From NCBI RefSeq assembly GCF_026210795.1, contig NC_089430.1, forward strand, positions 1-64,000: a stretch of DNA of 64,000 nucleotides, in the 5' to 3' direction. How positions within the stretch are numbered: the stretch's first letter is position 1; every line of letters begins with the position of its first letter. Shown piece by piece: positions 18,868 to 55,373 of the stretch. The notes under the pieces were generated by a model, which saw only the letters and a list, made by a program, of their open reading frames with translations, had not been told where the DNA came from and made no database searches. Made by a program: the position numbers and the translations under genes. This DNA is from Rhizophagus irregularis (taxonomy: Eukaryota).

Positions 18868-21800
18868 ATGGCTCAAAGTAACAATGAAGGTAAAAGCATA
18901 TAGCATCAAATACAAATTGAAATTATTCTAAAATTTTTCTAAACAAATTTGCAATATAATAAAACTAGTTTCAAGAATTGAGAAAGATAAAGGTAAAATT
19001 ATAAACATGTGATTTAAATTTTTAAACTAATCATTAAAAATTATTTTAATATGTTAGCTCGTAAGTAATAAGATATCTTGTTGGAATGATAATTAAATTA
19101 TATTTTATATAACCAAATAATTTATTTTATTATTAACGTTATTATAGTTAGTAAGTTAATAGTTATTTATTTTTTATTGTATTTTTTACATGACATTTCA
19201 AATAACTAAATTTTTCATTATTATAATTGTTTAATAATCACTTATATTATAGCAAGTAAGTATTTAATTTTATATTAATTTAAAAATATTTGTATAATTC
19301 AAACTAATAATATTATTTATTTAAATAATTAGATTGTAAGTTACTGTGTATATTTTAATTTTTATATATAATATATAATTGATTATAATTACTTTACTAC
19401 AAAATTATTATTAATTAATAATATTACAGGGTGTAAGTTATTTATTTAATTCTATTATATTTATATAATATTTATATGTATAATTTAAACTAACTAAATT
19501 ATTTAAAATTATTTATTTAATAATATAGGGAGTAAGTTATTTATTTAATTCTATTATATTTATATAATATTTACATATAATTTAAACTAACTAAATTCTT
19601 TATTAAAAAATTATTTATTTAATAATATAGTTCGTAAGTTATTTATATTTATATAATATTTACATATAATTTAAATTAACTAAATTCTTTATTTAAAAAA
19701 TTAATTTAATAATATAGGAAGTAAGTTATTTATTTAATTTTACCATATTTATATAATATTTATATATAATTTAAACTAACTAAATTCTTTATTTAAAAAA
19801 TTATTTATTTAATAATATAGTTTGTAAGTTTTTTATTTAATTCTATTATATTTAGTATATAATATTTACATATAATTTAAACTAACTAAATTCTTTATTT
19901 AAAAAATTATTCAAATATTTTAGATGGTAAATTTCTATTATTTATATATATAATATTTACATATAACTTAAACTAATTAATTCTTTATTTAAAAAATTAT
20001 TCAAATATTTTAGAAGGTAAATTTTTATTATATTTATATAATATTTACATATAATTTAACTAAATTTTTTATTTAAAAAATTATTCAAATATTTTAGAAG
20101 GTAAATTTCTATTATATTTATATAATAATATTTACATATAATTGAAATTAACTAAATTTTTTATTTTAAAAAATTATTTATTTAATAATATAGCTTGTAA
20201 GTTATTTATTTAATTTTACCATATTTATATAATATTTATATATAATTTAAACTAACTAAATTCTTTATTTAAAAATTATTTATTTAATAATATAGCTTGT
20301 AAGTTATTATTTAATTTTATTATATTTATAATATTTACATTATAATTTAAATTAATTAAATTCTTTATTTAAAAAATTATTTATTTAATAATATAGTTTG
20401 TAAGTTATTTATTTAATTTTATTATATTTATATAATATTTATATATAATTTAAACTAACTAAATTTTTTTATTTAAAAAATTATTTATTTAATAATATAG
20501 GGAGTATGTTATTTAATTTTATTATATTTATATAATATTTACATATAATTCAAACTAACTAAATTTTTTATTTAAAAAATTATTCAAATATTTTAGAAGG
20601 TAAATTTCTATTATATTTATATAATATTTACTATAATTACAATTAATTAAATTCTTTATTCAAAAAATTATTTAATAATATAGGAAGTAAGTTATTTATT
20701 TAATTTTATTATATTTATATAATATTTACATATAATTCAAACTAACTAAATTTTTTATTTAAAAAACTATTCAAATATTTTAGAAGGTAAATTTCTATTA
20801 TATTTATATAATATTTATATATAATTTAAATTAACTAAATTCTTTACTTAAAAAATTATTCAAATATTTTAGATGGTAAATTTCTATTATATTTATATAA
20901 TATTTATTATATATAATTTTTAAACTAATTAAATTCTTTATTTAAAAAATTATTTATTTAATAATATAGTTTGTAAGTTATTATTTAATTTTTTTTTATA
21001 TTTATATAATATTTATATATAATTTAACTAATAAAATTTTTTTATTTAAAAAATTATTTATTTAATAATATAGTTTGTAAGTTATTTATCTAATTTTTTA
21101 TTATATTTATATTATTTACATATAATTTAAACTAATTAAATTCCTTATTTAAAAAATTATTTATTTAATAATATAGTTTGTAAGTTATTATTTAATTTTA
21201 TTATATTTATATAATATTAATATATAATTCAAACTAACTAAATTTTTTATTTAAAAAATTATTTATTTAATAATATAGGGAGTAATAAATTATTTAATTT
21301 TATTATACTTATTATAATATTTATATATAATTTAAACTAACTAAATTCTTTATTTAAAAAATTATTAAATATTTTAGAAGGTAAATTTTTATTATATTTA
21401 AATAATATTTACATATAATTTAAACTAACTAAATTTTTTATTTTAAAAATTATTTATTTAATAATATAGGAAGTAAGTTATTTATATAATTCTATTATGT
21501 TTATATAATATTTACATATAATTTAAATTAATAATTTTTTATTTAAAAAATTATTTATTTAATAATATAGGAAGTAAGTTATTTATTTAATTTTATTATA
21601 TTTATATAGTAATATTTATATATAATTCAAACTAACTAAATTCTTTATTTAAAAAATTATTTATTTAATAATATAGTTTGTAAGTTATTTATCTAATTCT
21701 ATTATATTTATATAATATTTACATATAATTTAAACTAATTAAATTCTTTATTTAAAAAATTATTCAAATATTTTAGATGGTAAATTTTTATTATATTTAT

Positions 21801-24800
21801 ATAATATTTACATACAATTTAAACTAATTAAAATTCTTTTATTTAACAAATATTTTAGAAGGTAAATTTTTATTATATTTATATAATATTTATATATAAT
21901 TTAAACTAATTAAATTTTTTATTTAAAAAATTATTCAAATATTTTAGATGGTAAATTTATATTATATTTATTATAATATTTCCATATAATTTAAATTAAC
22001 TAAATTCTTTATTTAAAAAATTATTCAAATATTTTAGAAGGTAAATTTATATTATATTTATAATATTTTCATATAATTTAAACTAATTAAATTCTTTATT
22101 TAAAAAATTATTCAAATATTTCAGAAGGTAAATTTCTATTATATTTATATAATATTTATATATAATTTAAACTAATTAAATTTTTTATTTAAAAAATTAT
22201 TCAAATATTTTAGAAGGTAAATTTATATTATATTTATATAATAGTTATATATAATTTAAATTAATTAAATTCTTTATTTAAAAATTATTTATTTAATAAT
22301 ATAGGGAGTAAGTTATTTATTTAATTCTATTATATTTATATAATATTTATATATAATTTAAATTAACTAAATTTTTTATTTAAAAAAATTATTCAAATAT
22401 TTTAGAAGGTAAATTTATATTATATTTATATAATATTATATAATATTTAAATTAACTAAATTCTTTATTTAAAAAATTATTCAAATATTAGATGGTAAAT
22501 TTCTATTGTATTTATATAATATTTTCATATAATTTAAACTAACTAAATTCTTTATTTAAATAATTATTTATTTAATAATATAGCTCGTAAGTTTTTTATT
22601 TAATTCTATTATATTTATATAATATTTATATATAATTTAAACTAATTAAATTCTTTATTTAAAAAATTATTTATTTAATAATATAGAAAGTAAGTTTTAT
22701 TTAATTTTATTATATTTATATAATATTTATATATAATTAATTTAAACTAATTAAATTATTATTTAATAATATAGCTCGTAAGTTTTTTATTTAATTCTAT
22801 TATATTATATAATTTTATATATAATTTAAATTACTAAATTTTTTATTTAAAAAATTATTTATTTAATAATTATAGTTTGTAAGTTATTTATTTAAATTAT
22901 TATATTTATATATAATTTAAATTAACTAAATTTTTTATTTAAAAAATTATTTATTTGATAATATAGGGAGTAAGTTATTTATTTAATTCTATTATATTTA
23001 TATAATATTTTCATATAATTTAAACTAATTAAATTCTTTATTTAAAAAATTATTCAAATATTTTAGATGGTAAATTTCTATTATATTTATATAATATTTA
23101 TATACAGTATAATTTAAACTAATTAAATTCTTTATTAAAAAATTATTTATTTAATAATATAGGAAGTAAGTTATTTATTTAATTTTATAATATTTATATA
23201 TAATTTAAATTAACTAAATTTTTTATTTAAAAAATTATTTATTTAATAACATAGAAAGTAAGTTATTTATTTAATTTTATTATATTTATATAATGTTTAC
23301 ATATAATTTAAACTAATTAAATTCTTTATTAAAATATTTTAGCTTGTAAGTATATATTATATTTTTTTAATTTAATATAATTAATTTATTATAATTATAT
23401 TATACTTACTTATAATCTTTTTAAATTTTATTTTAGTTGGTAAGTTATAAATTATTATATATAATAAAATTTATATAAAAATTAAATATTATTGTATTAA
23501 AATTTTATAATTTTATTTAGAGTAAGTATAATTTATATTATTCAATATTAAATTTTTAATTGTAAATTATATTTTAAATTTAAATATAATTTTATTTTTT
23601 ATATTTAAAGATTTGGTAATAGTGGAAGTAAAATAATGGATCAATTTATTTTTAAAAATAAATTAAAATGGATTTCTTATGATAAATTTGAAAATATTAA
23701 TAAATATTCTGATAAAGAAGGATTTGGTACTATATATAAAGCTAAATATAAAAGGATTAAAGTAATTCTTAAAGATTTTAATCATCTTAATAATTCAGAT
23801 GAATGTTTAAATGAATTTTTAAATGAAGTATGATTAAGTATTTTTTTTTTTATGTTAATTATTATTTATTTATATTAATTTACTAAATATTATTTTTTTT
23901 ATAGTGGAAAATTATTGATTCAAATAAAATTATTAAGATATATGGATTTACAAAAAATCCAGATACTTTGAATTATATATTAATAATGGAATATATAGAT
24001 AAAGGTAATTTAAGAAAATGTTTGACAGAAATAACAAATACTTGGAAACAAAAATTATTTAATTTATATAAAATTATTGATGGTCTTAATGATATTCATA
24101 AAAAAAATCTTATTCATTATAACTTTCATGATGGCAATATTTTATGTAATGAATATAAAGAAAATATATATGGAATTTATATTAGTGATTATTTGGAATT
24201 ACACCAACTTACAAAATTTTTTTTTAAAAAAAATAATATTTATGGTGTTATACCATTTATGGCACCTGAAATTTTAAAAGGTCAACCTTATACTCAAGCT
24301 AGTAATATATATAGTTTTTCTATGATTATGTGGGAATTTACATCTGGAATTCCACCATTTAATGATAAAGCACATAATCTTCAACTTGCTTTAAATATTT
24401 GTAAAGGTGAACGTCCTGAAATTATTAAAAATACTCCACAATGTTATATAAATTTAATGGAAAAATGTTGGAATGAAGATCCATTAAAAAGACCATCTGC
24501 ATCAACAATTTTAAATATTATTAAAAATTGGATTTCTTTTCCTTTAGAAAAGAAAATTGAAGATATTAATGAAGAATTAAGAAGCAATATTATGGAATTT
24601 ATAAATGCATCTAATAATAATTACATTAATCATACTGTAAAATTTCATCCACAAGCATACTATACAAGTCGTTTACTTGATTTTACTAGTATAAATTTAA
24701 ATGAAATTTTATTTCTTAAATTAAAACAAGAGCTTTTTAAATTAGAAAAGATTATTGAAACTAATGATCAAAGTTCTTACCAAATGGAAAAAAATGATTT

Positions 24801-24882
24801 GCAAGCTCAATTAATTCAATTAAAAGCTAATATTCAAGAATCAAAATTTCAGCAAGATCAATTTAAAAATCTATTAATTTAA
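18868..24882 (+). CDS. Tyrosine-kinase-like (TKL) protein kinase or pseudokinase with microexon-encoded N-terminus; predicted 460 aa, 51 introns
   Basis: Exon model: 18868-18889, 18969-18992, 47 three-nt exons (19058-23439), a 1-nt exon at 23521, 23611-23827 and 23905-24882. All introns are GT-AG and the total of 1383 nt is open. Kinase motifs: KWISYDKF, EGFGTIYKA, VILK, IYGFTKNP, IHYNFHDGNIL, YGVIPFMAPE, NIYSFSMIMWE, CWNEDPLKRPS. The kinase domain is secure; the first two exons are less certain. Confidence 0.85.
18993..23610 (+). repeat. AT-rich tandem array of about 85-105-bp units; each unit is one intron plus one 3-nt microexon
   Basis: Each unit contains ...tag/cag NNN gtaagt/gtaaat... 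and most carry a CTAAC/CTAAT/TTAAC branch-point-like motif. The central units (19430-23345) are highly similar to each other, while the outer units are diverged. Confidence 0.92.
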
Positions 24883-25092
24883 TTTCTCAAATTTCTTAAA
24901 TTAATTATAAGTAAATAGAAGAAAAAAAATTTTAGGTTAGAAAGATTGCTAATATTATTTAAATTTTTAGAAAATTTTTATATAAAAAAGGTTCTAAAAA
25001 TACTTTTATTAATAGAGATTTTTGTTATGCATTAGTATTTATATTTAATTTCAAAATTAATATATAAAACAAATAGGCAATTTCTATTTGTA

Positions 25093-28549: not shown

Positions 28550-31500
28550 TTAAAACATAAATGTATTAACAAAATATTCATTTTGTCGTTCGGCACGTTG
28601 AACTACTTGTACCAATTCTATAATTGATTCAATAGGCACAAAGTTATACGTGTTTATAATCTTCAACCAAGGACAATCATATTTGTATAATTGTCTTGAA
28701 TTACAAAAATCGTACCATTGTACAAGGGCAAGATCAAACGACAAATCTTTTTCGATAATTTTAACGTTAATCAACATAAGAACCTAAATATAAAATAAGT
28801 AAGTTATTGCTTGGATTATCATTCGTTAGTAGTTCAATATTAAATAAAATTCTGTACCTTGCCAAAACATGCACCACCTTCGGCTGTATTATAATCTTTA
28901 GACTCTTCCTCGCTCATGCTGATTGACACATCACTAAATGACGGTTCGTTATAATACAAGCTTTTTGCTCTAATGTAATCCCCGCTTGAAGAAATATTAG
29001 CATAACTATACCAACTAATATTAATAGTTTCATTATCGGTTAACCCTTCACATAAATCTAAAAACTCGTTTAACGATTCCAGAAAATATTCTAGAGCCGT
29101 TAGAGCTTCACGGGCCAAGCTATTGTTTGATCGGTAATTATTGAAAAACGCATCAAAATCTTGCAAATTAAATGTGCCTAACAAACTATTCATTAGAGTT
29201 TTTTGTTTGCGTCTATTAACATTTGTACGCTGAAGTAAGTATTTAATTATCCCTTTTCGGTAAACCTATATATAATATAACAATATTAATTTGTGATAAT
29301 GCATTGAATATCGTACTAGCTGTAATACCAACCGATTTAATCATTTGATCTGTTGGGTCACGCTTATTACTAGACCTATAGGGTATTTTTACGGCTTCTT
29401 TATGTAAAAATTCATACGTTTCCATCGTAAACCCGTTGATTGCTCCATATTCTCTAATTGTCTTAATGATATGATAGCACCAATTATGCAGCTTTGGTAA
29501 TCGAAGTTCTGATAGAGAATATTCTTTAAATAGTTTTATAAAGCTCTTTGCCCATTGTTTGATTAGATTCTTTAAACAAAATAAAATATAATCATGTTAA
29601 TTGCAATATTCATAAAAAACTAATCATCATATTATCTCGCTATCATACATCAAAAATCACCAGCTCTGATTCCTTAAAATACTCCCGTCGGCTGTATAAA
29701 TACATCTTATTCCAATAATAATACACGTTAACCAATGCTTCATCAGATCGTTTGGCTCGGGATGTACTTATCGATGATTTGTGGTGGTTTATGACTATTC
29801 CTTCTATGACGAAAACAAATACCTTCATCATATTCCGAAATTCATTGGCAGTAAACCGCTTAATATTTTCCAGGCCATTCTTGAATATCTTAAGGCCAGG
29901 AAATCGTGGGATTTTAGCCAAACGATTATCAAGTTCGTCAACCGCTATTTGACCACACAATTCTTTTAACAACACCCTTGTGTAGGTCACTTGATAATTA
30001 AACAATCCCAAGTCGAGATGATGCATTCGGTCAGGTATTGTTGACAAATAAATATTTAACTGACTATCGTTTATTTTTGAGTAAATATATTAGAAAATAA
30101 TTGGCAAAATAAACACACTTTCTTTAAAAATCACGTGATACGTACGGATAATTCCAAAAGATGTTTTTCATATCGTGTAGAGAATATTGTTGTGCAGAAT
30201 TTTGTTCAACAAGACATCTCATATTTTCTGGTGTTCTTAAGATAATTTGATCGTTTGTTAACTCCACATTGTTCAGCTTCTCACGCTCCACCAAACATTT
30301 ATGACAAGGGTGGTGACAATTAACAGAGTTAAATGTTAAAGTTACCGCAGCATTTTCTGGTAAATCTCCTAACATTACGGAAATAAACGGAAAACACCAC
30401 TTTATACCATTATCTGTTTGAAGATCAAATCCACCATTATAGTCAAGTAACGATCGTGTCAATATATTTAAAGCATATTGATAAAGGACTCGCTTGGCTA
30501 ACCGAAAACTCTTTGACCTCTTTTGTGAAATATCTTTTGCCTTTAGGATCGGCAGATAACCCAAAAGTATTTTGGCATCAGGCCTATTTCTGCGCCAACT
30601 AACTATATTACCAAGTGTCAAATAAATGGGATGTTCGCTGGTCTTTCCTAAGTGATCACGTGTCGTAGCATCCGAATATAAAATTACTGACAATACATTT
30701 GCACCATTAGGAAGTGATTTTTGGACTCTTTCCCACCATTGTCCATTATATTGTTCGTTATATATTCTTTCTCCGTTATGATTTAATAGTGTAAATTTAA
30801 AAGTACAATGGGCAAATATATCCTTATTGCTCAACAATTCCTTTATAACGTCAAAAATCGGACGATAATGAAGATAATACGTTTCTTGTTTATATGTCAT
30901 GATAGGCGCTTTTTTAAAAGAAATATGTGGTACAACAATTTGATCCAACAATTGATGACCTTTTTTTACCGACGTAGGTAAAATTACATTATCGCGGCAA
31001 ATCTTTTTTGAAAATTTAAGTATATCGTTACCACATGCATCAGACAAATTCCATTTAGTAAGCAACTCCATAAAATTTCCAAACTCTTCGCTTGGAAATT
31101 CTGGTATATTTGTTACTCTAATATCAAGAGATTCGAAGGTTAGGATTGGTTCAACGTCAATTAGCGAATATTCGATTTCAATGTCTCTTGATTCGTCAAT
31201 CACTTCCTATATATGGATGTTAATAGACAATAAATACTTGATAAATATGTCGATCGCTTTCTATATATAGACATATATAGACGCACACAAAAGTATAAAT
31301 TATTTTAATTTCATTTAACGTTGATTTCTCACCTCCTCTTTCTCTTCCTCTTCCTCTTCATAGCTCACCTCTTCTAGTTGTTCATCATTATCGCTCCCTT
31401 CCTCTTCTTCTTCCCCTTCGTCTTCCCCTTCCCCTTCGTAGTTCACATCCTCTAGTACTTCATCATTATCTTCCCTTTCTTCTTCGTAGTTCACATCCTC

Positions 31501-32932: not shown

Positions 32933-35918
32933 ATGGATAACGACGACAACAAAAATAATAATAATAAAACCAGCGGCAAACGCTCTTTAGATTTTAATAA
33001 TTTAAAACGCCCAAAACCTACTACTAGATCTAGTACTAGGTCTACTAGATCTACTAGATCGTCAACGAGTATGAATATAGAAGTAATTATTTTAACTTTA
33101 AATTATTATATATATTTGGTTGTAAATTATTATGATTGTATAAATATACTTATATAATTAATATCTTTTAGATCAACGAACAAAATAATTTGAAAGGTTT
33201 TATTTTAGTTTTTTTTTGAACTTGTGTGAACGAATATCTAAAAATACATTATAATTAACAGATACCGAAGCCAATCATCAAACAATTTCAGACGCTTCAC
33301 AAATAGAGACTCCAAAAAAGACGAAAATTGCAAGGTTAGATTTGTTTCGTGATAGAGATATTGATGAGATTATTATCGGTACCAATAAAACTACCAAAGG
33401 ATCTTCTCAAGTAATATCAGTTATCAATTTTGTTATTGTTTATATTATTCATTATTAGTTTATTAAATACATTTTATTGTTTTCATCAGGCAATAAATGA
33501 ATCATCAACAATATCCTCTTATATCCCTTCGGTGGTAATTTCTCCTCCTTCCTTCTCTCCTCCTTCCTCTATTAAAACAACGATATCTGATAAAGCAGCA
33601 TCTGGTGGTAAAGCAGCATCTGATAAAGCAGCATCTGGTGGTAAAGCAGCGTCTGATAAAGCAGCATCTGGTGGTAAAGCAGCGTCTGGTAAAGCAGCGT
33701 CTGGTAAAGCAGCATCTGGTGGTAAAGCAGCGTCTGGTAAAGCAGCATCTGGTGGTAAAGCAGCATCCGGTTCTAGTAAATCATCATCATCCAGCGTTAA
33801 GGCAGTGATTAGTAAAGAATCGCCATCAAATAATAATGTGACAACATCATCATCTAAAGTAACGGATCAAGGTTAGATACGATATATACTGTTTGTTCAT
33901 TGTTGTTTTGTTAATAAATTATCAAATTGGTTCTTATTATTCTTATTAACGATAATTTATAGCAGTTAGTTCTGGTGAATTTGCCAAATTAATACAAATT
34001 AATCAAAAAACAGCATCAAAACTCAACACGATTATTAATAATCAAGAAAGGTTTGAAGCTATGTTAAACGAACAAAAAGACCAGATTTCAAATATAATGT
34101 CGGTATTAGATTCTCATCGCAACGTTGAAACTGAAGTCGAGGTTAAAAAAAGGGTAAAACGAAAAAGAAAGACAAAAACTCAGATGAATTTTATCACGTT
34201 GTCACCGGCACCTGCCACGTACCGATAGACGAAATCTTAACATTTATAAATATATATATGTCCGTGCTTGGTTTAGATTTTATCATTTTAATTTATTCAA
34301 AATTTCAAACTTCGATAATTTCCCTTAGTGTTATCATAACATTATTAATTATCATTATATTTTCCTAAGTTCCCAATATTATTTTCAATTTCAAGTCAAA
34401 ACTCCCTTTTTTCACTTAAGTCCAAAATCTCGATCTTAAATAACTTTTCTTATCTTGAATATCTTTTCTTATCTCTTGATCATCTATCTAAAACTTAACA
34501 TTCCCCAACAATTTACTTGTTATTCCATTATACATTCTCCAACTTAACATTTTCATTATAAATCTGTATCCATGAATTATTTCCCCAACAATTGATTTGT
34601 CTGATTCCCTTTTAATTTATCATTTATAATTTTCCCATTCCATCATAATTTATATGATCCATAATTTTCTCATTCCATCAATTAAACTATCAAAGTCCTC
34701 CCAACGAAATAATAATCTATTTATGCTAGACTACTAATAACTAATCTAATAATATAAATAATTATAAATAACTGAATTATAAATAAATATTATTATAAAT
34801 AACTAACTATTGTACAACTATAATAATGTATTTCTAATTATTTCAGTTAAATATTCTTTCATCGGTTAAATGTTTATCCATATTCCATTCGGTATTTCAT
34901 TCAGCCTTCGGATAATTATTCCTCTGTTCACGTGATTATTTCGATATCTAGGGTTACAACGTAAATATATGGTTTAAAGTTATGTATTTCTTTATATTAT
35001 TTACTAAATATAACAATTTGTATGTATTAAGGATGCGATTAAAGATCTTTCTTATGAATTATTTCATGAGCATCGACGAGTAACCGACCGACAAATGAAA
35101 AATCGCCTTAAAGAAAAATTAGAAAATGATGAAACATCCGCCAAAATACTCATGAAGTTGTCCGGAAAAGGAGTTTCGTTCGATTATTTGTGGGATGATA
35201 GAATGCATTCACAAGTAAGTAGTATTTGTATTATATATTAGTCATTAATTGCCAAATTTATAACAACTTGTTTATTTTATTAAATATAGTTACTTGCTGC
35301 AAATCGCGTTAAAAAAGGTTACTACATTAGAAAATTGAAAGAAAGTTTGTGGAGTACTTTCGGTATTAATAGAATAACGCCATTCAAAGATAATTTCAGC
35401 AAACAACAGATGCGAACATGGAAAGCAAGTAAAAACGTTCAACAGGTCCATGAAGATTTATACAAACCGAGCGACTCAGATGATCCATCGTCTGATACTT
35501 ATATTTCGTTAATAATTAAATCGGTTTTTGCATCTGATAAAGAGCGTACAAATGAAAACGCCATTTGGGTTCAGTCGGTATTAGAAGTTATATTTGACGA
35601 GGAACATCTTTCGTCAAAAAGCGATGCAGACATTGTCGATTCATGGACCGGAAATATAACAGATACAGACGTGGTAAGTACTCAACTGAATTGTATGTAA
35701 TGTTTTAAATTAAATTACTAGTAATATTGTATTTCTTTATTTAGGATTCTGAAGAATGTGAATGTGAGTCTTCGCCCAAAACACCTATAACACCTATTGA
35801 CGATGATGATGAAATCATTGGAGTTGATAATCGTGTTGATGATGTTTATGATGAGCATACGACGGACGATAATCAAGCAGCTGATTTAGAAGTTGCTGAT
35901 TTAGAAGAAGAGCAATAA
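32933..35918 (+). CDS. Second (accessory) gene of the Plavaka element; multi-exon, low complexity, interrupted by a solo LTR
   Basis: ATG at 32933, short exons with GT-AG introns, (KAASGG/KAASD)n repeat at 33590-33770, acidic C-terminus ending TAA at 35916-35918. Confidence 0.6.
34200..34958 (-). mobile_element. Solo LTR (Gypsy-like)
   Basis: TGT...ACA termini with a perfect 4-bp ACGT duplication. Reverse-complement ends resemble the LTR at 56958-57658. Confidence 0.75.
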
Positions 35919-36856: not shown

Positions 36857-38959
36857 TATACCACCTCGAAGGTATCATTTGGATTTGAAATCCTGCAACT
36901 TGTGAAGTCATCATTATTCGAAAGTAGTGGCGACATATAATGCCGCAGGATATATTAGACATGCACGAACAAAGGTAAGAAATGGAATCAATTATCACCA
37001 CGAAATATATATGCTTTTTATTTTCAGGTCGCATATCGGTAATCTTCCATACTTCTTGAATGTTTTCTTCACCAACTTCAGCAATTATTGACTTCAACAG
37101 AATTTGCTTAGCATCATATGAATCTTCAACACATCCTTCCATTACACCAGCTTCTGGATCCTATATAGCAATAGTATTAGATTTCGTTAACATTTCAATA
37201 TATAAAAAAGACACTAAATACCTCAACGATATTTGGTTCCACTTGACTTGGTACAAAGTAAAGGCATTGTGCCATTTCCATACGCTCAGCAGACAATATT
37301 TGTGGGGTTAGGTATTCAGTCATTATTTTATCGACTTTAGGAAAAAGGTCTTGACTAACCGTTATAATCCCCACGTAAGTTGATAAAATGCGGTACTCAA
37401 AAAACCGATTCCATTGAGCTTCATGTTCAAACCGTGCATCAAGAGCATCTGCGAGACCGCATAATGTACTGTTTGCTGACAACTCACGCTTGATTATATT
37501 ATTGTGACTTTTGACGCGGAAAGTAGTTTGAATTCCTGCGGTGAAAATTTTTGACGTAAATGCACGAGCTCACGCTTGACGACTAGGATAAAGAGCTCTC
37601 ATCAGGTAATCCTTTATACTAGGATATTTTTCTATAAGCTTAGACCACCTTTCATAAAAAAGTTCTTCATACAAACTGTTACGACATGAAAAAAAGCTCC
37701 GAACGAAACTTTCATATTGATCGCTGAGCTTTGATTTAACATTCTTTGGTAGATTTTCGCTGATATGGAAAATGCAATGAATCGGGTGAGTTGTCTCGTA
37801 TATTTGTGTGATCGCTGCGTTCATGGTGGGATCGGCATCTGTGATGAACACTAAAGGTTCTGTCATTGTTGCTTTTTTTGTGCACTCCAAAATCCATTTA
37901 TAAGATTCTACCGATTTGTCAGATACGAGGGCTTGAGCTACAAGTCGTGATTTAGTATTGTTATTAACGACAAGGAAAAGTGATAATGGCATTTGATAAC
38001 GGTTGGTCTTAGCAGTGTTATCGTTTAAAATAACATCATGATACTCTAACCAAAGAGTAATTTGGGACATAGACATCCAAAAAAGCTGAGTAAGTCTTTT
38101 ATCTTGATCAAACTGAAAATCAATGAACCATCTGGGATCGTTTGACTTATGCTCAATTAGTATTTTTAGTAAGCGAAATGCATCATGGATTACATCTGGC
38201 CTAACCTTATATTTTTGTATTACATTAGAGAGATCACAGTCGAGAATAGATATAGTCAGAAATTTTGCCTTCAACAACTTTTGTTGAGTGGTAATCGGTA
38301 AATTTCTATGTTCGGTGAGAAATTGGACTTCTTTAAGGACATCATCAGGAATGCAACGGTATTTTGATGAATAATTTTCAGTATCAGCAGGAAATAACGC
38401 ATAGTTGTGCAAATTATTGAAAGTGGTAAGAGATACGCCTTGAGAGTTTTGAGGGCAATTGAAATTTGCATTCCATGGACATTGCTGGCATTTTGATTTA
38501 TGATCTTGATGACTATTAATATCAACTTGTTTTTGTGGATGATAATGGCCGCCGAATTCACATCTAAAGCTATGATGTTTAATACTCCCATCTTCACGCT
38601 GACCTAATCGTTTCTTTATAATCGTAAATTCATGTCTTTTGCTATAGGCTTTTATGATTCCGTCCACATCTCCCCACGACCTAAAGGTATCGCCTATGGA
38701 AAGATTTGTTATAGTTAAATATTCAAGGTAACACAGGTCGAACAGGTGTCATTGTCGCAAAATTTGCCTGGAATTTTTCTGGCAAATTGAGAATTATCCC
38801 GGTAAATTGGGGTAAATTGTGTTACAATTTTGGGATAATGGAGGACTTACAATTTGGCAAATTTTGTCAAAATGGCAGAATTCCTACAGAATTCCTAATT
38901 CAAATGTTGAGAAATTTTTCAGATAAATTATCATTAAATTGTGGGAAATTCTAGGCAAA

Positions 38960-43595: not shown

Positions 43596-44507
43596 AGTAG
43601 GGCAAACTTGGGGGTTCTGGGACAGCGGCTATCACATAGGTCTAACCATAATTTAGTGTACCCCCAGACCACCTAGCCTTGTTTTCTGATATGTTAACAC
43701 TATACCTGTTTTTCTATCCCCAGATCACCTAACCTTGATTCCCGATATGTTATTACTTGATAGCTAAAAAAGAACCCCCAAGCGTTGTAGATAAGATTAA
43801 CATCATTTATTCCTAGGCATTATTACCACGCATGGATCCATTCCAGGGTATCATAATTTTATGCTATATCAGATTGCCTTTATAAGTGCCAAAGGTATGA
43901 AGGACACGAAGTGTCTGTAATACCGATGGCACGATTCAGCAATCCATTGTGGCATACTATTTTTATGATACTCTAAAATGGATTCATTTGATGATTTAAG
44001 CCATTCATGCTCTAACCAAAAATTTTTAACAGGAAGGTAACTAGACATATTGTAAAGCTTTTCCTGCTATACGAAAAAATCTGGGACAGTGAAGTCTAAC
44101 CAAAAATCTAACCCAGGTCTAACCAAAAATGTATAGCAGGAAGGCAACTAGATATGTTTTAAAGTTTTTCCTCCTATACGAAAAAATCTGGGACAGCGAA
44201 GTCTAACCAAAAATCCAACCCAAGTCTAACCAAAAAATGTATAGCAGGAAGGCAACTAGATATATTGTAAAGCTTTCCCTGCAATACGAAAAAATCTGGG
44301 ACAACAGGTCTAACCAAAAGTCTAACCAAAAATCCGTCTGAGGTCTAACCAAAAAATATACAGCAGGAAGACAACTAGACATATTGTAAAGCTTCCCCTA
44401 CAATACGAAAAAATCTGGGACAATGAAGTCTAACCAAAATTTAACTCTAATCATAAATTGCTCTGATTCTTTGACGAAGCCTATTTTCATACCGATTTTG
44501 ATAGTAA
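43596..44507 (+). repeat. Left terminal inverted repeat of the Polinton-like element
   Basis: Near-identical reverse complement of 54463-55373. Inner half has about 120-bp tandem units rich in TCTAACCAAAA. Confidence 0.95.
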
Positions 44508-45120: not shown

Positions 45121-46200
45121 TTATGGTGGAAGTTCTGTATCATCTGGTATAACCAAAAGTTCTTCCCTCACAAAGGATCTCTCTGATTCTTTACCATCAT
45201 CATCAATAAGCCAGTACAAAATTGGTTGATTTTTCTGTGTTAAAGACATATGGATATGATAAATCTTAGGTGACCAATTCATATCTCCTGCTCGACGTCT
45301 TCCACCTTCCAGATCATTTGGTTCAAGTAAGTACCTTACACTTATATCAGGTGGTAGTTTCTCTTCTTCATACCCAACAGGTCCATCACGAGGATAAGAA
45401 GATCTGGAAGACACTCGTGATTTTTTTATAGCTACAGCAGGAGATATACCAAGTTGTTGGGTCACTGAGTTATTTATACTTTCTACAGCAATAGGTAAGT
45501 TTTTTACCCAGACTCAAGATCTCGTTTTACCTAAAGTTAGTAAGTCAGATGCATTTTGAGAGAGAAATAGTTTCTCAACCAAGGTACGGTTATATCGCTC
45601 CACAATGCCAACAGTACGCTTAGACTTGGCCTTCTGAATCTTTACACCATGGGAAGTCATCAACTTTTCACACTCACCTTTAAACTCTGAACCCCTATCT
45701 GTAATTAATAATTTTGGCCAAGTGAGCGGACATGTTGTATCATCATATACCTTTTCAAAAGCCCAAGCAATAGTATGAGAAGTTAGGATTCTCTGTCGAT
45801 CTTTAACACTGGTTGAACCTATAGGGACACTTTCTTTATACCTCGATGCTATATCAACTATATTGAGACAGAAAAGATAAGTCACATGTCCAACCTTGTC
45901 ATATGGCATATACAAAATGTCAGCTTGATGAACTTCATTGGGAAACTTGTATAGAACTAAAACTTACACGAGAGATAAATCGGGGACGAGGTTTGTGAAC
46001 TTGATGTACTGCCTGTCTTTCAAGCCAATCCTGCACTTCATCTAAGGTGAAATCATATCCAGCATTTTGTGATGTCTCATACAATTTTTTGGCAGTTCTC
46101 TGATATCCAGATGGTTGATAAAATATTCTGCATAAAGTCGAAGTCACCTCTACATTTCGTGCTTCATCAGAATCTATTTTAATAATAGGTATCAATGGGA
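45121..46200 (-). pseudogene. Polinton-type retroviral-like (rve, DDE) integrase, disrupted
   Basis: IFYQPSGY...VQDWLERQAVHQVHKP, QADILYM, IVDIASRY, LITDRGSEF, VERYNRTL and NWSPKIY...SFVREELL. Frameshift near 45940 and an in-frame TGA at 45514-45516. Confidence 0.9.
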
Positions 46201-48279
46201 GTTGAACAGGCATATCTTGATCTGCTAAATAGCAACTTTGCTTTACGTAAAGAGCTGATATTAAAGGAAACAAATAATATTTCCAATAAGGAGAAAATCC
46301 GTAAACTCACAAAGGAGATAGAGGCATGTGAACGATATATCTTCTATCTTGAAAAAAATCTTGTTTCACGTGAGGATGAGATCGATCAGTTAAAGGCAGA
46401 GTGTCAGTCCACTTTAGTTGAACTTGGAAAGTATCGAGATCACTTAGAGTTAAAGGAAGAGGCACTTGTTGCCCAGGATGAACGTATCATTCAGCTTGAA
46501 GACACAGTAGATAAACTCAAAAAACGCATTCAAGAATTATTTTTATGTAAAGAAAAGATAGAAATGGATGAAGATAATGAATTATTCAATCCTATTCTAA
46601 GAATACTAGACCGCCGACGGGCAGTTGCAGATTGTGTGTCTGAAATTCGACTATTTTTTGATCGGAATAGGATTCCAATTCCACAAGACATAGATGATGT
46701 CTTTAATGCTACCACTCAAAGTCTTGATGAAATTATTCGTCAAGCTGCTCTAATGCAAGAAATTGGTGTAGACCAACTAAATCAGATAGAAGGATTGCAG
46801 ACATTACTTGGAGAATCTTTAGATCGTACAAATGCTCTTAATCAAGACTTAATAAGAGTACGTGATGATTTTACATATGAGAGAAATGCTCGTAGACACT
46901 GGGAAACTGTTGCACAACAGAATCAAGCACATATTGCAGGAATACAAATAGCCAATCTAGGTATATGTTTTCTGAATAGACGCAAAGATGCACAACTGGC
47001 AAACCAACAGAATCAGCTGGTAAATCATCAGAATCAGATAGCAAACCAACAGAATCAGATAGCTGAGCATCGAAGGAATGCACACAGGCTGATGTTACGC
47101 TATAATGCTGATACAGAACGTTGGAGAAGAAGGCATGCAGGTTGTATACGTCAGGCACAAAACTGGCAAAGACAATATAGGATTTCACAGACCCAGGTAC
47201 AAGCACAGGCCCAAAATATTTTAAATTTACAACAACAAATATTAGCGTTACAAAACAATCCTCCAAACATGGCTACAATACAAGATGTCATGCATACTAT
47301 ATCACCAGGTCTTGCACAGTTACCATTTTATGATGGACAAGAGCCGCCAGACTCTTATTATCAAAAGCTTAGAGCTGTCAATGAGATGGCTCGTCCACTA
47401 GCTTTTGCTGGTTTTAATGCTGCTATGAGGTGCAATGTCATGAAAAATAAAATGTCTGGTAGATTTATTCCTGTTCCAGTAAATAATCCATATAATGGCA
47501 ATGCTGCTATTAATACAGAACCAGAGTTTCTAAACTGGCTGCAAGGAAAATATAGAGATGTGATGGTTGGAACAAATCAAGGTGCTATAATAGCACTCAT
47601 GAATGAATCATTTTCTCCTATAGATACACCAGATACATATGCAAAAAGAATTCGATCATTAGCACAAGGACAAGTATATGCCGAAATTTTACCTTATCTA
47701 TATAATCATTTGCCTGATGCTTTAGAAATGAGAGTTAGAATTGCTGCTCCTGCTGATCTTGATGCTTTCTTTAATGAGTTGCGTAATAAATGGTATGAAA
47801 GTGGAGGGCGAAAAAATCCAACCACTATAGTAGAACAACCACAGAATAGAACTGCATTAGAAAAGCTTGCAGATATAGCAGTACGTCTTGGCTATACTGG
47901 TGACATAACAAATCCTGTAGCAATACATACTTTCATTGAGAGTGATCTTACCAGAAAGTTAGGTGGATAAACACAACATCTAAGAAAAGATCACTTCGGA
48001 ACTGGTCAGATTAAAAAGGTGACAAAGACAACCAAATCTTCTCCTAAACGTCATTGCTCAAACTGTGGTAGAACAGGTCATTCCAAAAACAAGTGTCCAC
48101 GGAGTAGACGTGCTAAGAAAGTTAACAATACTCACATAGTTGACTATGAAGAATCTGAAAGTGATGAGGAAACTGATGAAGAAACTGAGGAAGAGTTAAC
48201 TGAAGAAGAAGAGGAGGAGGATGAACCTCAGAATTGCTTTAGTGTAAAAAAAAAACTCGTCAACGTGGAGTTTCGGTAA
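46195..48279 (+). CDS. Gag-like protein: long coiled coil, helical domain, CCHC zinc knuckle, acidic tract (one in-frame TAA at 47968)
   Basis: ORFs 46195-47970 and 48019-48279 share a frame. LPFYDGQEPPDSYYQKL resembles the start of retrotransposon Gag capsid regions. CSNCGRTGHSKNKC is CX2CX4HX4C. Confidence 0.7.
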
Positions 48280-49193
48280 AAACCAAAGGGAAAAAATCCC
48301 GTACTTCCAAATCTAAAAGAGAACCTATTCTCAAGAAAACTGATGAAGTCTTTCATGCAGCACTGAAGTCTATAATTGCTTCACTAGCAGCACAATGTCC
48401 TAAAGAAATCCTCCTACAGATTAATGCTTATACCAATCAAGCATATGAGAATCTGAAAGACCCGCTTTTAAACCATTTTGTTAGTGACTATCCAGTTAGT
48501 GAAAGAAAGAAACTCTGGGATGTTCTTTCAGCAAATATGCAAGACATTTTATCTCCTCTAGCTCATGCTGTAAATACAGCAACTCCACTATTACCAACTC
48601 CTCCTGCAGATGTACCATCTGAAGTAGAACAGAAAGAAGACAAAACACTGAACCATGCAATACGTGCCTATCAGCAGAAAAACCTATACTGGCCAAGACC
48701 CTTAGAAATCAACTTTTTCCAGTTAGATGATCCCAATGATGTAGCGACCATTTCCTGTAAAATCAAAAATGTATGCATACCCTATGCTATGATCGATACA
48801 GGGTCTGACTCTTCAGTAATCTCTGAGAATGTAGCTAAGCATCTAGGTCTCAAAATAGATCGAAAGAATATACATGCACTTAATGGTGTAGCTGGATCAA
48901 CCAAAACTCTTGGCACTATCAATGAAATTCCCATAACTATTGGTGAAGGTACAAATACAGTCACTATATCAGACGAATTCTCTGTTATACCTACCGAGAA
49001 GGATCGAAATGGTAAGGACAAATCATTGCTAATACTTGGTATACAGTGGCAGTATCATGCAGGTTGGGAACCTGTAGTAAAGGGTGAGTTCAAAGCAAAT
49101 GTAAATGGACAGGTTGTCTCAATTCCTCTCTCTGTACATAAGGCACAACGTAATGTTTTTGCAGTAGATAGCCAGCCTATAAAAAAAAACTAG
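48245..49193 (+). CDS. Retropepsin-like aspartic protease in the -1 frame relative to Gag
   Basis: AMIDTGSDSSVISENVAKHLGL and LILGIQW. The frame is open from the A10 run at 48246-48255 to TAG 49191-49193. Confidence 0.85.
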
Positions 49194-49441
49194 CTGATCG
49201 TACCTGTCAGCATTGTGGGAAGGAATTCCCATATCCTTCTAATCTTAGACAACATTTTTTACGAAAAAATCCATGTGCAGTAAAAAAGTCCCATGCAAAG
49301 CCCATGCAAAGTCCATGTGCAGTTAAAATTTCCCATGCAAAGTCCATGCAAAGTCTATGCACAGTAAAAAAATCCCATGCGCAGTCCACACAAAATTTGA
49401 GTGAAGCAACAGTACCCATTCGTCTATTTCTTGATGAATAA
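49190..49441 (+). CDS. Zinc-finger-containing extension in the -1 frame relative to the protease (no start codon ahead of the finger)
   Basis: LADRTCQHCGKEFPYPSNLRQHFLRKNPC, followed by SHAKPMQSPCAVK-type repeats, ending TAA 49439-49441. Preceded by the heptamer A AAA AAC. Confidence 0.6.
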   Translation, partial: LADRTCQHCGKEFPYPSNLRQHFLRKNPCAVKKSHAKPMQSPCAVKISHAKSMQSLCTVKKSHAQSTQNLSEATVPIRLFLDE

Positions 49442-49447
49442 TGGGAA

Positions 49448-49885
49448 CTACGACATGGAAGCAAGTTTTTTTTCTATTTCTCGTACTTGCTTCTTCATGG
49501 TATCAATTTCATGTCGTATCTGATGATTTGTCTTGATCAATTTCTCATGTTCTTTAGTAAGGTTCTGCATGAATCGGCCAAAAGTAACCTTATTATATTC
49601 AAGCAAGTGCTTCTGAAGTATGGAAACTTCTTCACTAATTATGTCTTGTATCATTCTGTTTCTTGGCATATATGTCTGTTTAACAGTTAGTTTCTGACGT
49701 GCTAATTTTTTCTGGTATCTTTCTACTTCATGTTTCAAAAATAACTCTACCATGGAATTTACTCCACTGGCATCAGACACAGATAGTGGATTGCGCTTCC
49801 TTGTTGTGAGACGAATCCATGCCTCATGTATTACAGAAGCTGGTAATATAACTAGTAGCTCAGTGTATACCTGGTTGAAAGACAT
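49448..49885 (-). CDS. Hypothetical coiled-coil protein, 145 aa
   Basis: Intact ORF within the element, co-oriented with pPolB. Confidence 0.55.
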   Translation of the reverse strand: MSFNQVYTELLVILPASVIHEAWIRLTTRKRNPLSVSDASGVNSMVELFLKHEVERYQKKLARQKLTVKQTYMPRNRMIQDIISEEVSILQKHLLEYNKVTFGRFMQNLTKEHEKLIKTNHQIRHEIDTMKKQVREIEKKLASMS

Positions 49886-49977
49886 TAGTTCTTATTACGA
49901 AAAAAAAATTTGGAATTCCAAAGAATTCTGAAGAATTCCATAGAATATCTTATCATATGACACCTCCCAGAAATCTG

Positions 49978-50247
49978 TTAGATGTCATGTGCTAATGATT
50001 GTCTTTCTCTTAGTATTGAATAATAAAATGCCTCTACTAAGTCATAAAAGGCATTTGGAATGTTTGGTACAGGGCATTTCATAAATGCATTAATACTAGT
50101 CTTAGAACTTATGACCATTTTAGCTAATGCCTTTATACTTTTTATTGCATCCTCTACATCTTTAAAGAGACCTCTCTGAATTGTGATATGTATAAGGTCA
50201 TCGATATATTCTTTACTATGTATATCATAGATTGGATCGTCTTCCAT
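49978..50247 (-). CDS. Hypothetical protein, 89 aa
   Basis: MEDDPIYDIHSKEY... ORF immediately downstream of pPolB. Confidence 0.5.
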   Translation of the reverse strand: MEDDPIYDIHSKEYIDDLIHITIQRGLFKDVEDAIKSIKALAKMVISSKTSINAFMKCPVPNIPNAFYDLVEAFYYSILRERQSLAHDI

Positions 50248-50320
50248 TTTAACTACTGAAAAAAAAATATAATTTATTATTAATATATGCCTAAGTATCA
50301 CTAAACTATTCTATATCATT

Positions 50321-53300: not shown

Positions 53301-54392
53301 TCCCATACATTAATGGAGATCTCAGGATTGAGGTCCTCAATCTTGCTAAATATGCGTGGACAAACAGGAGTGGGCATGGGAATTGCATTGAGATTGACTT
53401 GTTCCAAGTATGGCTTAAATTTTTCTGCCCGAAAGATTCGCTCAAGTTTTTGTGTATGTCCATCTTTATATGCAAAGTAAGCACCTAAAGCCCCTTGCAA
53501 ACATTTTTCAGAGAGCAAGCCTGTGTCCGGATCTATGAGATCTTTGTTATCCGGATTGATAGTGCACTCACTTCTTATTTGCAAGTGCCTTAGGTGTAAG
53601 TATGTATGAGCCTCCTTCTGCTCGGCGGTAAGTATACGTCTCAATAGTTAATATATCTATACTAACAATTTTCCAACCAGACCCTCCTTTCATAAATTTG
53701 ACAATTTTATCTGTGATATCTACTGCTGATTTCGTTAAATGATCATCTATATCATTCTTTAAAAGAAGTACACGCATGACTCCTCTATGATAAACTTGCT
53801 TATATGTTCCACTATTATCTGTATATGTAGCCAATATAGTGATAGCTGATTTGATTTGCCCCTTTTCTTCAAGTTCACTCTCAAGAATTTCTGTTATTTT
53901 CTGACGGGTATCAGCTATTACACTTGGAAAATATGGTATATCTCTAACATTTGGTTTAAGATCAGCTTGCCATACTGTCTTATGTTTTAGAGATTTATGT
54001 GAACGTGCAGGATCATGAACTCTTTTTACAAATTGAATATCACACCATCTTCCTCTATAATCTCCTTGCATATAAGCAAACCATTCATTATCTGTTTGGG
54101 GAGCTCTTCTTTTTCGTGGAGTATATTGATTGTAATCACCAGGTCCTGCTAACCATTTTGCTAGTTCATCAATTGATAAATTAGGAGTTTTCTCTGCAGG
54201 AGCTGGGATAACTTCAGGTATGAGTTCCTGGAGTTGCTCCGGTTGTGGTTGCAATTGTACAATCTCAGGTGTGGGATCCTGAGGGTTAGCTGTAGGCTTG
54301 CATAGAAACTTTCTATTTTGATGCCCACGAAGCTTTTGTGGAGTTGCAAAAGTCTTTCCACATCTATCACAAGTTCGATTACTTGTTGCCAT
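50321..54392 (-). pseudogene. Protein-primed family B DNA polymerase (pPolB) with N-terminal zinc finger and endonuclease VII-like insert, disrupted
   Basis: Exonuclease motifs ADFE, FHNFCGYDSHL and YLKTDV. EndoVII-like CWIC...DHCHITGKFRGAAHNACNL. Polymerase motifs YVDANNLYGWAM, KLMNNSVYGKTM and YMDTDS. Frameshift near 53570; in-frame stops at 52004 and 51542. Confidence 0.95.
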
Positions 54393-54462
54393 ACTGGTTG
54401 TGTACTAATAACCTAAAAATTTTTTTCTTCAATTAATAAATTCTAAAATGTTTTCCATCTTA

Positions 54463-55373
54463 TTACTATCAAAATCGGTATGAAAATAGGCTTCGTCAAA
54501 GAATCAGAGCAATTTATGATTAGGGTTAAATTTTGGTTAGACTTCATTGTCCCAGATTTTTTCGTATTGTAGGGGAAGCTTTACAATATGTCTAGTTGTC
54601 TTCCTGCTGTATATTTTTTGGTTAGACCTCGGACGGATTTTTGGTTAGACTTTTGGTTAGACCTGTTGTCCCAGATTTTTTCGTATTGCAGGGAAAGCTT
54701 TACAATATATCTAGTTGCCTTCCTGCTATACATTTTTTGGTTAGACCTGGGTTGGATTTTTGGTTAGACTTCGCTGTCCCAGATTTTTTCGTATAGGAGG
54801 AAAAGCTTTAAAACATATCTAGTTGCCTTCCTGCTATACATTTTTGGTTAGACCTGGGTTAGATTTTTGGTTAGACTTCACTGTCCCAGATTTTTTCGTA
54901 TAGCAGGAAAAGCTTTACAATATGTCTAGTTACCTTCCTGTTAAAAATTTTTGGTTAGAGCATGAATGGCTTAAATCATCAAATGAATCCATTTTAGAGT
55001 ATCATAAAAATAGTATGCCACAATGGATTGCTGAATCGTGCCATCGGTATTACAGACACTTCGTGTCCTTCATACCTTTGGCACTTATAAAGGCAATCTG
55101 ATATAGCATAAAATTATGATACCCTGGAATGGATCCATGCGTGGTAATAATGCCTAGGAATAAATGATGTTAATCTTATCTACAACGCTTGGGGGTTCTT
55201 TTTTAGCTATCAAGTAATAACATATCGGGAATCAAGGTTAGGTGATCTGGGGATAGAAAAACAGGTATAGTGTTAACATATCAGAAAATAAGGCTAGGTG
55301 GTCTGGGGTATACTAAATTATGGTTAGACCTATGTGATAGCCGCTGTCCCAGAACCTCCAAGTTTGCCCTACT
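54463..55373 (-). repeat. Right terminal inverted repeat of the Polinton-like element
   Basis: Reverse complement of 43596-44507 with few substitutions. Confidence 0.95.

What the first reader, a model, noticed from the sequence alone, without database searches (positions are those of the whole stretch)
19430..23345. Two interleaved exon-centred cassette types and block duplications imply shuffling through a shared mid-intron
Type A is acceptor 'ttatttatttaataatatag' + (TTT/CTT/CTC/TTC/GGA/GAA/AAA) + donor 'gtaagtt'. Type B is acceptor 'ttattcaaatattttag' + (AAG/ATG) + donor 'gtaaattt'. Acceptor, exon and donor travel together, while the intron middle (atataatttaaactaactaaattctttatttaaaaaa) is common to both. 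The exchanged unit is therefore an exon cassette with crossovers in mid-intron. Runs recur (TTT-GGA-AAG-GAA at exons 15-18 and 23-26; GAA-TTT-ATG-AAG at 8-11 and 27-30), and the outer units are diverged, as expected for an array turning over by unequal recombination. The TAG-AAG-GT cassettes are also NAGNAG acceptors whose second AG abuts GT, so they could act as zero-length recursive splice sites.
Basis: partly seen in the sequence, partly recalled or inferred. Interest (0 to 1): 0.7.

Follow-up and report, generated by a model that had tools for sequence, protein, structure and literature searches.

The report
Shuffled one-codon exons in fungal kinase
In a root-symbiotic fungus, the front end of a kinase-like gene reads as 47 three-letter exons plus a one-letter exon, a spliced contig from a likely RNA run shows the last six joined in order, and the repeated introns around them have likely been reshuffled by recombination, which would let the protein's tip vary almost one amino acid at a time.

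Summary
The A/B cassettes are real: acceptor and donor types agree across the exon in 40 of 40 core units but are unlinked across the intron (17/8/7/9, P 0.19). The array is the unannotated 5' part of a subtelomeric Rhizophagus irregularis kinase-like gene: 47 3-nt exons plus a 1-nt exon in phase-1 introns give a 460-aa frame. One contig from a likely RNA run joins exons 43-47 and the 1-nt exon as predicted (16 of 16 letters). The order has no stop codon against about 4 expected (P 0.001-0.004). Mid-intron exchange is supported, but not as intact cassette blocks: mid-intron variants are scrambled, no exact repeat spans two exons, the closest whole introns have different flanking exons, and the two 4-exon runs are weak (P 0.07-0.09). 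Zero-length recursive splicing is unlikely. Three metagenome contigs carry micro-exons before related kinases. Strain polymorphism was not tested. Closest known: the codon-sized mini-exons of Tuber NLRs and brown-algal exon shuffling. This scan noted similar 3-nt exon arrays beside kinases in other genomes. Verdict: new variant of a known kind.

The parts
18868..18889 (+). Predicted first coding exon (ATG start, 22 nt, ends in phase 1)
   Evidence: Gene model; not covered by reads laid here
18969..18992 (+). Predicted 24-nt exon 2 (phase 1-1)
   Evidence: AG/GT flanks and open frame
19058..19432 (+). Outer 3-nt exons 1-5 (CTC 19058, TTA 19148, CAA 19253, ATT 19333, GGT 19430) with diverged introns
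19433..23342 (+). Homogenised core: 41 introns of 79-103 nt and 40 3-nt exons (exons 6-45); 24 type A and 16 type B cassettes; shared mid-intron holding a branch-site-like ACTAAY about 40-47 nt before the AG in most of the introns that have it
   Evidence: branch-site role inferred from the fungal consensus (recalled)
19924..23069 (+). Span of the 16 type B exons: ATG at 19924, 20873, 21777, 21948, 22492, 23067; AAG at 20014, 20098, 20597, 20784, 21378, 21859, 22038, 22125, 22214, 22406
23067..23521 (+). Exons 43-47 and the 1-nt exon, seen joined in genomic order in a contig of run X20
   Evidence: loose end against the prediction printed
23343..23345 (+). Exon 46 (CTT), right boundary; its acceptor and first 19 donor letters resemble type B flanks, a likely source of the B cassette
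   Evidence: compared by eye; origin inferred
23437..23439 (+). Exon 47 (TTG)
23521..23521 (+). 1-nt exon (A), needed for the frame: 460 aa with it, 70 aa without
   Evidence: a 1-nt exon at the same place in L015 and L016
23611..23827 (+). First kinase exon; public annotations start at an internal Met here
23905..24882 (+). Second kinase exon with C-terminal extension; PF07714/PF00069; Asn at the catalytic HxD position and DYL at the DFG position
   Evidence: (joint 23827 to 23905, GT..AG, in X18 and X19)

Best explanation
The array is a run of real 3-nt exons at the 5' end of a Rhizophagus kinase-like gene (last six exons shown spliced in, the rest inferred), and its order has likely been built by recombination between the near-identical introns and filtered by selection against stop codons, which would make a variable N-terminal segment. 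Steps: (1) shown: exons 43-47 and the 1-nt exon are joined to the kinase exon. (2) Inferred: each 79-103 nt intron is removed on its own, one after another. (3) Follows from the gene model: introns are phase 1, so each codon takes the last base of one exon and the first two of the next; nine triplets give 18 amino acids and some neighbours give stops. (4) Inferred: unequal crossover or slippage and short-tract gene conversion occur wherever units are homologous; A and B flanks differ too much to recombine inside, so they move as blocks and A/B switches fall in the shared mid-intron, while same-type units also swap whole introns or single triplets. (5) Inferred: stop-making orders are purged. 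(6) Speculative: the segment tunes what a catalytically weak or dead kinase binds or senses.
For: 460-aa open frame needing the 1-nt exon. Contig 17 of X20 is identical to 23611-23769 and its 16 loose letters equal exons 43-47 plus the 1-nt exon; that 16-mer is not in the window unspliced. Contig 10 of X19, another study, is identical to 23611-23684 with 183 loose letters; the two-contig consensus there matches the predicted last 30 letters at 23 of 30, all 7 differences being the alphabetically earlier letter (read by eye; tie-breaking rule assumed). 0 stops against 4.6, 4.2 and 3.8 expected (P 0.001, 0.0014, 0.0037). Middle exon base is T 23, A 18, G 6, C 0, as for a wobble position. 40 of 40 linkage across exons, none across introns. 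18 of 28 pairs of mid-intron columns show four gametes; rare shared variants cross intron classes in 5 of 8 hand-picked motifs by acceptor type and 2 of 8 by donor type. Micro-exons before related kinases in 3 of 21 metagenome loci; a 1-nt exon keeps the frame in L015 and L016.
Against: RNA support is assembled contigs from runs only guessed to be RNA; the decisive contig has depth 3.9 and covers 6 of 48 micro-exons. Shuffling is inferred from one sequence: no second allele was seen. The stop test assumes full scrambling; 768 of 820 tandem block duplications and 40 of 40 single duplications are stop-free anyway, so a history of few events needs little selection. Recurrent C-to-T change could mimic part of the mid-intron scrambling (36 singleton substitutions in 41 introns). 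The Trp-codon excess is not significant among stop-free orders (5 against 3.2, P 0.09). Nothing here tests translation, protein function or a benefit of variation. 18 of 21 metagenome matches were isolated matches with no array.
Confidence: 0.6

Rival explanations
1. Neutral minisatellite: the exons are spliced, but the array is a passive tandem expansion inside a tolerant N-terminus, with no role for variation beyond keeping the frame open.
For: Subtelomeric, transposon-rich setting; most duplications are stop-free by default (768 of 820); catalytic Asp replaced (8 of 116 scorable homologues have Asn); homogenised centre with diverged edges is ordinary concerted evolution.
Against: All 41 introns keep GT and AG; zero stops; micro-exons sit before distant paralogues, and their array introns are as close to ours (distance 10-11) as ours are to each other although the kinases are 55-60% identical.
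Confidence: 0.24
2. Tuber-type system: the main diversity comes from alternative splicing (exon skipping) of a fairly fixed array, not from DNA shuffling.
For: Every skip keeps the frame; only 5 of 47 single skips create a stop; Tuber nank genes are reported to work this way (PMC4986451, PMC10197012, passages). Pieces that look partly spliced occur in paralogues.
Against: The one readable contig has six exons in genomic order with no skip; random skipping is costly (61% stop-free at 10% skipping, 37% at 20%); the DNA itself shows recombination traces. The two modes can coexist.
Confidence: 0.1
3. The ten TAG-AAG-GT units act as zero-length recursive splice sites, so AAG is not in the mRNA.
For: Second AG abuts GT in 10 units; deleting all AAG leaves no stop; no RNA piece read here covers an AAG exon.
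Against: Introns are 79-103 nt whereas ratchet points are described in long introns (PMC8605326, abstract); AAG shares its flanks with ATG, which has no second AG and is spliced in (exon 43); AAG never follows a T-ending exon, P 0.036 if it were always skipped; an upstream YAG is normally preferred to a downstream AAG (recalled).
Confidence: 0.03
4. The intron is a mobile Introner-like unit that inserted repeatedly, or the array order is an assembly artefact.
For: Near-identical introns occur in distant paralogues; a few whole introns are nearly identical; the array itself was not checked against reads.
Against: Donor and acceptor of one intron are unlinked while flanks across an exon are fully linked; insertion every third base in one phase is implausible; no exact repeat exceeds 79 nt, so units are distinguishable; exons 43-47 match a transcript contig.
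Confidence: 0.03

Closest known systems
[quoted passage not shown] 2012; not held, seen only as cited in passages of PMC4986451, PMC10197012, PMC13449251)
   Same: Tens of 3-nt exons in an expanded fungal gene family, placed in a part of the protein that could vary.
   Different: Here a tyrosine-kinase-like domain, not an NLR; Glomeromycotina, not Ascomycota; evidence points to DNA-level mosaicism of homogenised introns, whereas the cited mechanism is alternative splicing. Phase and intron homogeneity in Tuber could not be checked.
[quoted passage not shown]
   Same: Symmetric exons rearranged by intragenic and intergenic recombination in candidate receptors.
   Different: There each exon is a 24-residue structural repeat, with inverted and dead exons in introns; here exons are 3 nt, codons are split between neighbours, and no reversed cassette was found. 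The paper found no shuffling in its LRR-kinases.
Fungal NLRs with highly conserved internal repeats (PMC10197012, PMC13449251; passages)
   Same: Concerted evolution of tandem units shuffled within and between genes.
   Different: There the conserved repeat is coding sequence; here 97% of each unit is intron and the homology that drives exchange is non-coding.
Drosophila ratchet points / recursive splicing (PMC8605326; abstract)
   Same: AG directly followed by GT in 10 units.
   Different: Short introns, an upstream YAG three bases earlier, and signs that the triplet is under coding constraint.
Single-nucleotide exon of Fusarium CYP621A (PMC12940212; search listing only)
   Same: A 1-nt exon needed for the frame of a fungal gene.
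   Different: One isolated exon there; here it ends a run of 47 3-nt exons.

Membership tests
Tuber nank-type codon-sized mini-exon genes | Tens of 3-nt exons spliced into the mRNA | tested here: met
   47 predicted; last five plus the 1-nt exon seen joined
Tuber nank-type codon-sized mini-exon genes | NACHT-ankyrin NLR architecture | tested here: not met
   Only PF07714 and PF00069 in the downstream exon
Tuber nank-type codon-sized mini-exon genes | Extensive alternative splicing of the mini-exons | tested here: inconclusive
   One contig in genomic order; contigs drop rare variants
Brown-algal exon-shuffled ROCO / NB-ARC-TPR genes | One structural repeat (24 aa or so) per exon | tested here: not met
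   Exons are 3 nt
Brown-algal exon-shuffled ROCO / NB-ARC-TPR genes | Traces of intragenic recombination among exon units | tested here: met
   Four intron classes; 18 of 28 four-gamete pairs
Brown-algal exon-shuffled ROCO / NB-ARC-TPR genes | Intergenic exchange with paralogues | tested here: inconclusive
   Array introns of L015 and L016 are as close as our own; constraint on splice signals could also explain this
Brown-algal exon-shuffled ROCO / NB-ARC-TPR genes | Inverted or inactivated exons inside introns | tested here: not met
   No reversed 3-nt cassette in the array; 41 of 41 introns keep GT-AG
Brown-algal exon-shuffled ROCO / NB-ARC-TPR genes | Diversifying selection on the variable exons | not testable with these tools
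   Only one allele in hand; no genome held for this window
Recursive splice sites (ratchet points) | Juxtaposed AG|GT | tested here: met
   10 AAG units
Recursive splice sites (ratchet points) | Location within long introns | tested here: not met
   79-103 nt
Recursive splice sites (ratchet points) | No sequence left in the mRNA | tested here: inconclusive
   No readable RNA piece covers an AAG exon; order statistic against it, P 0.036
Introner-like elements (definition recalled) | The whole intron, donor to acceptor, is the copied unit | tested here: not met
   Donor and acceptor types unlinked within introns, P 0.19, though a few whole introns are near-identical
Expanded Rhizophagus protein kinases (PF07714) | Kinase domain with many Rhizophagus paralogues | tested here: met
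   PF07714 E 2.5e-28; 580 of 2846 candidates at E up to 1e-60
Expanded Rhizophagus protein kinases (PF07714) | Catalytic Asp of the HxD motif | tested here: not met
   Asn here; Asp in 108 and Asn in 8 of the 116 scorable among 129 stored proteins; motif role recalled

The most novel reading that the evidence does not exclude
Arbuscular mycorrhizal fungi carry a family-wide diversity generator: kinase and pseudokinase genes whose N-terminal sensing segment is stored as one-codon cassettes in homogenised introns, so that recombination within and between genes rewrites the peptide residue by residue, each codon being set by a pair of neighbouring cassettes, giving isolates or nuclei different repertoires that gene annotation has missed.
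Probability: 0.3. Interest if true: 0.87.

Novelty: new variant of a known kind. Interest (0 to 1): 0.62.

Why it matters
Rhizophagus has about 2,500 kinase genes of unexplained purpose (2,533 in a passage of PMC10234402). Both public models of this gene start downstream of the array (P0001, P0121), and 8 of 129 stored homologues have low-complexity N-terminal strings that look like such triplets read in the wrong phase (0 in a control stretch), so a variable domain may be hidden across the family. If arrays differ between isolates it would be a testable route to receptor diversity in a fungus with no observed sexual cycle. Apart from function, 48 consecutive exons of 1-3 nt are an extreme natural test of how a spliceosome handles adjacent introns.

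Tried and rejected
No whole genome is held for the window, so paralogous arrays in this genome were not counted. A scan of the rest of the window found no second array. The run search listed no holder on record as RNA: no evidence either way; runs X2, X18, X19, X20 were guesses, and X2 behaved as DNA (unspliced pieces). Reads were laid only on 23300-24950 and 23530-23790, so order, copy number and AAG inclusion in the core stay open; word shares of DNA runs (0.57 at best) say nothing on polymorphism, and summed contig depth is no copy number. Protein searches found no transcript-derived N-terminus; a 98% identical piece in isolate C2 (P0126) shows the locus there but its DNA could not be fetched. 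Same-exon cassettes do not have closer half-introns (P 0.12-0.89); intron distance does not rise clearly with separation (rho 0.12, P 0.12). L019 first looked like a fourth array locus but has one isolated match and was dropped. Look-ups of earlier findings by place and by sequence gave nothing. Iotti et al. 2012 is not held. Paper searches found no description of micro-exon arrays in Glomeromycotina kinases; subscription papers and all supplements, including those of PMC10234402, were not seen. The spliced protein was not folded or searched, so its structure is open.
Full report
Setting. The window starts with 157 copies of TAACCC, so the locus lies 19 kb from a telomere. The exon at 23905-24882 is a protein kinase domain (PF07714, E 2.5e-28) identical to an annotated protein of Rhizophagus irregularis DAOM 197198 (P0001, 389 aa). 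That model and a later one (P0121) both start at a Met inside the exon at 23611 and leave out everything upstream.

Gene model. Parsing AG-NNN-GT sites and joining by coordinates gives exon 1 (18868-18889), a 24-nt exon 2, 47 exons of 3 nt (19058-23439), a 1-nt exon (23521) and two kinase exons: 460 aa with the 1-nt exon, 70 aa without. All micro-exon introns are phase 1, so a codon is the last base of one exon plus the first two of the next. The nine core triplets reach 18 amino acids and stop.

Is it spliced? The model was fixed before reads were laid. In one search, contig 17 of run X20 (a guessed RNA run, study P10, depth 3.9) is identical to 23611-23769 and carries 16 loose letters before 23611 that equal exons 43 (ATG, type B), 44, 45 (type A), 46, 47 and the 1-nt exon in genomic order; that 16-mer does not occur unspliced in the window. 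In X19 (study P11) contig 10 is identical to 23611-23684 with 183 loose letters; the consensus of two contigs there agrees with the predicted last 30 letters at 23 of 30, and each of the 7 differences is the alphabetically earlier letter, as a two-way tie would give (by eye; the tie rule is my assumption). The kinase intron is joined at GT..AG in X18 and X19. So 6 of 48 micro-exons are shown, the rest inferred. Two pieces from paralogues look partly spliced (an acceptor followed by two joined triplets and a donor; an acceptor followed by TTG, A and the kinase exon), which fits removal of one intron at a time but could also be genomic 6-nt exons or other paralogue sequence.

Coding constraint on order. 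The order contains no phase-1 stop, against 4.6 (all 47 shuffled, P 0.001), 4.2 (core 40, P 0.0014) and 3.8 (within type, P 0.0037). The middle base is T or A in 41 of 47 and never C. Caveat: 768 of 820 tandem block duplications are stop-free anyway, so these P values hold only if the array has been well scrambled. Two motifs recur in the peptide (FWKG and RIYE, twice each); they are the two 4-exon runs.

The cassette claim. Acceptor and donor types agree across the exon in 40 of 40 core units and are unlinked across the 41 introns (17 AA, 8 AB, 7 BA, 9 BB; P 0.19). A and B flanks differ by many changes, so the four classes need breakpoints between donor and acceptor. 8 informative mid-intron columns give four gametes in 18 of 28 pairs, 7 of 8 with donor type and 8 of 8 with acceptor type; rare shared variants cross classes, for example one T-to-C variant in introns 16, 18 (AB), 23, 27 (AA) and another motif in 31, 32 (BB), 37 (BA), 42 (AB) (the eight motifs were picked by hand). 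This supports exchange in the mid-intron. It does not support a clean exon-centred cassette as the only unit. Mid-intron features are unlinked to each other and to acceptor type (r2 at most 0.08). With type controlled, half-intron distances correlate within an intron (rho 0.26, P 0.022, 221 pairs) and not across an exon (rho -0.05, P 0.81, 396 pairs), and the three closest whole-intron pairs (30/33, 8/13, 28/42) each differ in at least one flanking exon. Of 52 exact repeats of 45 nt or more, 34 span one exon and none spans two. The picture is fine-scale mosaicism in which only the A and B flank blocks hold together, likely because they are too unlike to recombine inside. Recurrent mutation may add to the pattern and was not simulated.

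Block duplications. The runs exist (P 0.027 free; P 0.066 among stop-free orders), but their internal introns are not consistently close (percentiles 0.04, 0.66, 0.98 and 0.04, 0.11, 0.89; combined P 0.09). Only introns 8-9 and 27-28 form two consecutive close pairs. Old duplications since overwritten are possible; recent intact ones are not shown.

Why the middle is shared. It holds ACTAAC or ACTAAT in 24 of the 41 core introns, 40-47 nt before the AG in 21 of them, matching the fungal branch-site consensus (recalled), so constraint as well as exchange can keep it uniform. The B flanks resemble those of boundary exon 46 (by eye), which suggests that B arose by a crossover between the exon-46 donor region and an A intron (inference).

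Recursive splicing. Ratchet points are described in long Drosophila introns (PMC8605326, abstract); these introns are 79-103 nt. ATG shares the B flanks, has no second AG and is spliced in. If AAG were always skipped, a T-ending exon would precede it 2.5 times on average; it never does (P 0.036). Deleting all AAG gives no stop and no readable RNA piece covers an AAG exon, so it is unlikely but not excluded.

Relatives. A type A pattern scan of metagenome contigs gave 21 loci; 3 show micro-exons ahead of a related kinase (L004 with at least 17 triplets, L015, L016), 18 are isolated matches. In L015 and L016 a 1-nt exon keeps the frame; their kinases are 55-60% identical to ours, yet their array introns are at distance 10.25 and 10.5 from the nearest window intron, near the core's own median of about 12, while their terminal introns are at 17-24. 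Many annotated Rhizophagus paralogues join a short conserved start directly to the kinase exon, or show G/I/M/L-rich strings there (8 of 129 against 0 in a control stretch); I read these as mis-phased micro-exon strings (inference). The kinase has Asn at the HxD position and DYL for DFG, so it is likely a weak or dead enzyme.

Comparison. It works most like the exon-shuffled receptors of brown algae (PMC3341825, abstract and two sections) at the scale of the Tuber codon-sized mini-exons (second-hand, passages), and is a member of neither. Searches found no paper on such arrays in Glomeromycotina; passages of the assembly paper PMC10234402 on exons, introns and kinases do not mention them (supplements not seen). 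Earlier notes of this scan report 3-nt exon arrays beside kinases in other genomes; I did not test them.

Verdict. Observation confirmed; interpretation partly supported. A real, spliced one-codon exon array with good evidence of recombinational mosaicism and of selection on order; its variability among isolates and its function are untested. New variant of a known kind, interest 0.62.

Noticed in passing
window 1-949: Telomeric TAACCC array (157 copies); the kinase gene lies 19 kb from it.
   Followed up: no
window 45514-54404: Cluster of integrase (rve), aspartyl protease, endonuclease VII and organellar/viral-type DNA polymerase B frames, some interrupted by stops, flanked by 107-bp tandem repeats at 44011-44439 and 54643-54959 that look like inverted ends; Polinton-like element (label recalled).
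   Followed up: partly
window 30124-31206, 37570-38748, 11947-12312: Plavaka transposase, MULE transposase and DUF659 fragments.
   Followed up: partly
L016 minus strand, about 190-250: Coding sequence of a kinase C-terminus runs straight into the shared mid-intron motif and a type A cassette; a rearrangement at the mid-intron or an assembly chimera.
   Followed up: no
L004 1-1720: At least 17 3-nt exons, nearly all with T in the middle, ahead of another kinase subfamily; open in phase 1, rich in Asp and Tyr; introns more diverged than in the window.
   Followed up: partly
window 23334 and 23611 (loose ends): Paralogue pieces that look like partly spliced intermediates, with two micro-exons joined while a neighbouring intron remains.
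   Followed up: no
window 23905-24882: Asn for the catalytic Asp and DYL for DFG, shared with the closest paralogues (P0002-P0004); C-terminal extension rich in Gln, Glu and Lys. P0121 omits most of the kinase C-lobe.
   Followed up: partly
proteins P0040, P0079, P0109, P0117, P0150, P0157: Paralogue N-termini hold tandem 8-residue acidic repeats; the window gene has one 24-nt exon at that position, so a second tier of repeated 24-nt exons is likely.
   Followed up: no
window 33415-33876: 153-aa frame with a hydrophobic start and Lys-Ala-Ala-Ser-Gly repeats; no Pfam match.
   Followed up: no
window 20504 and 21282: The two weakest donors (GTATGT, GTAATA) both follow GGA exons (16 and 24), whose skipping alone would create a stop.
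   Followed up: no
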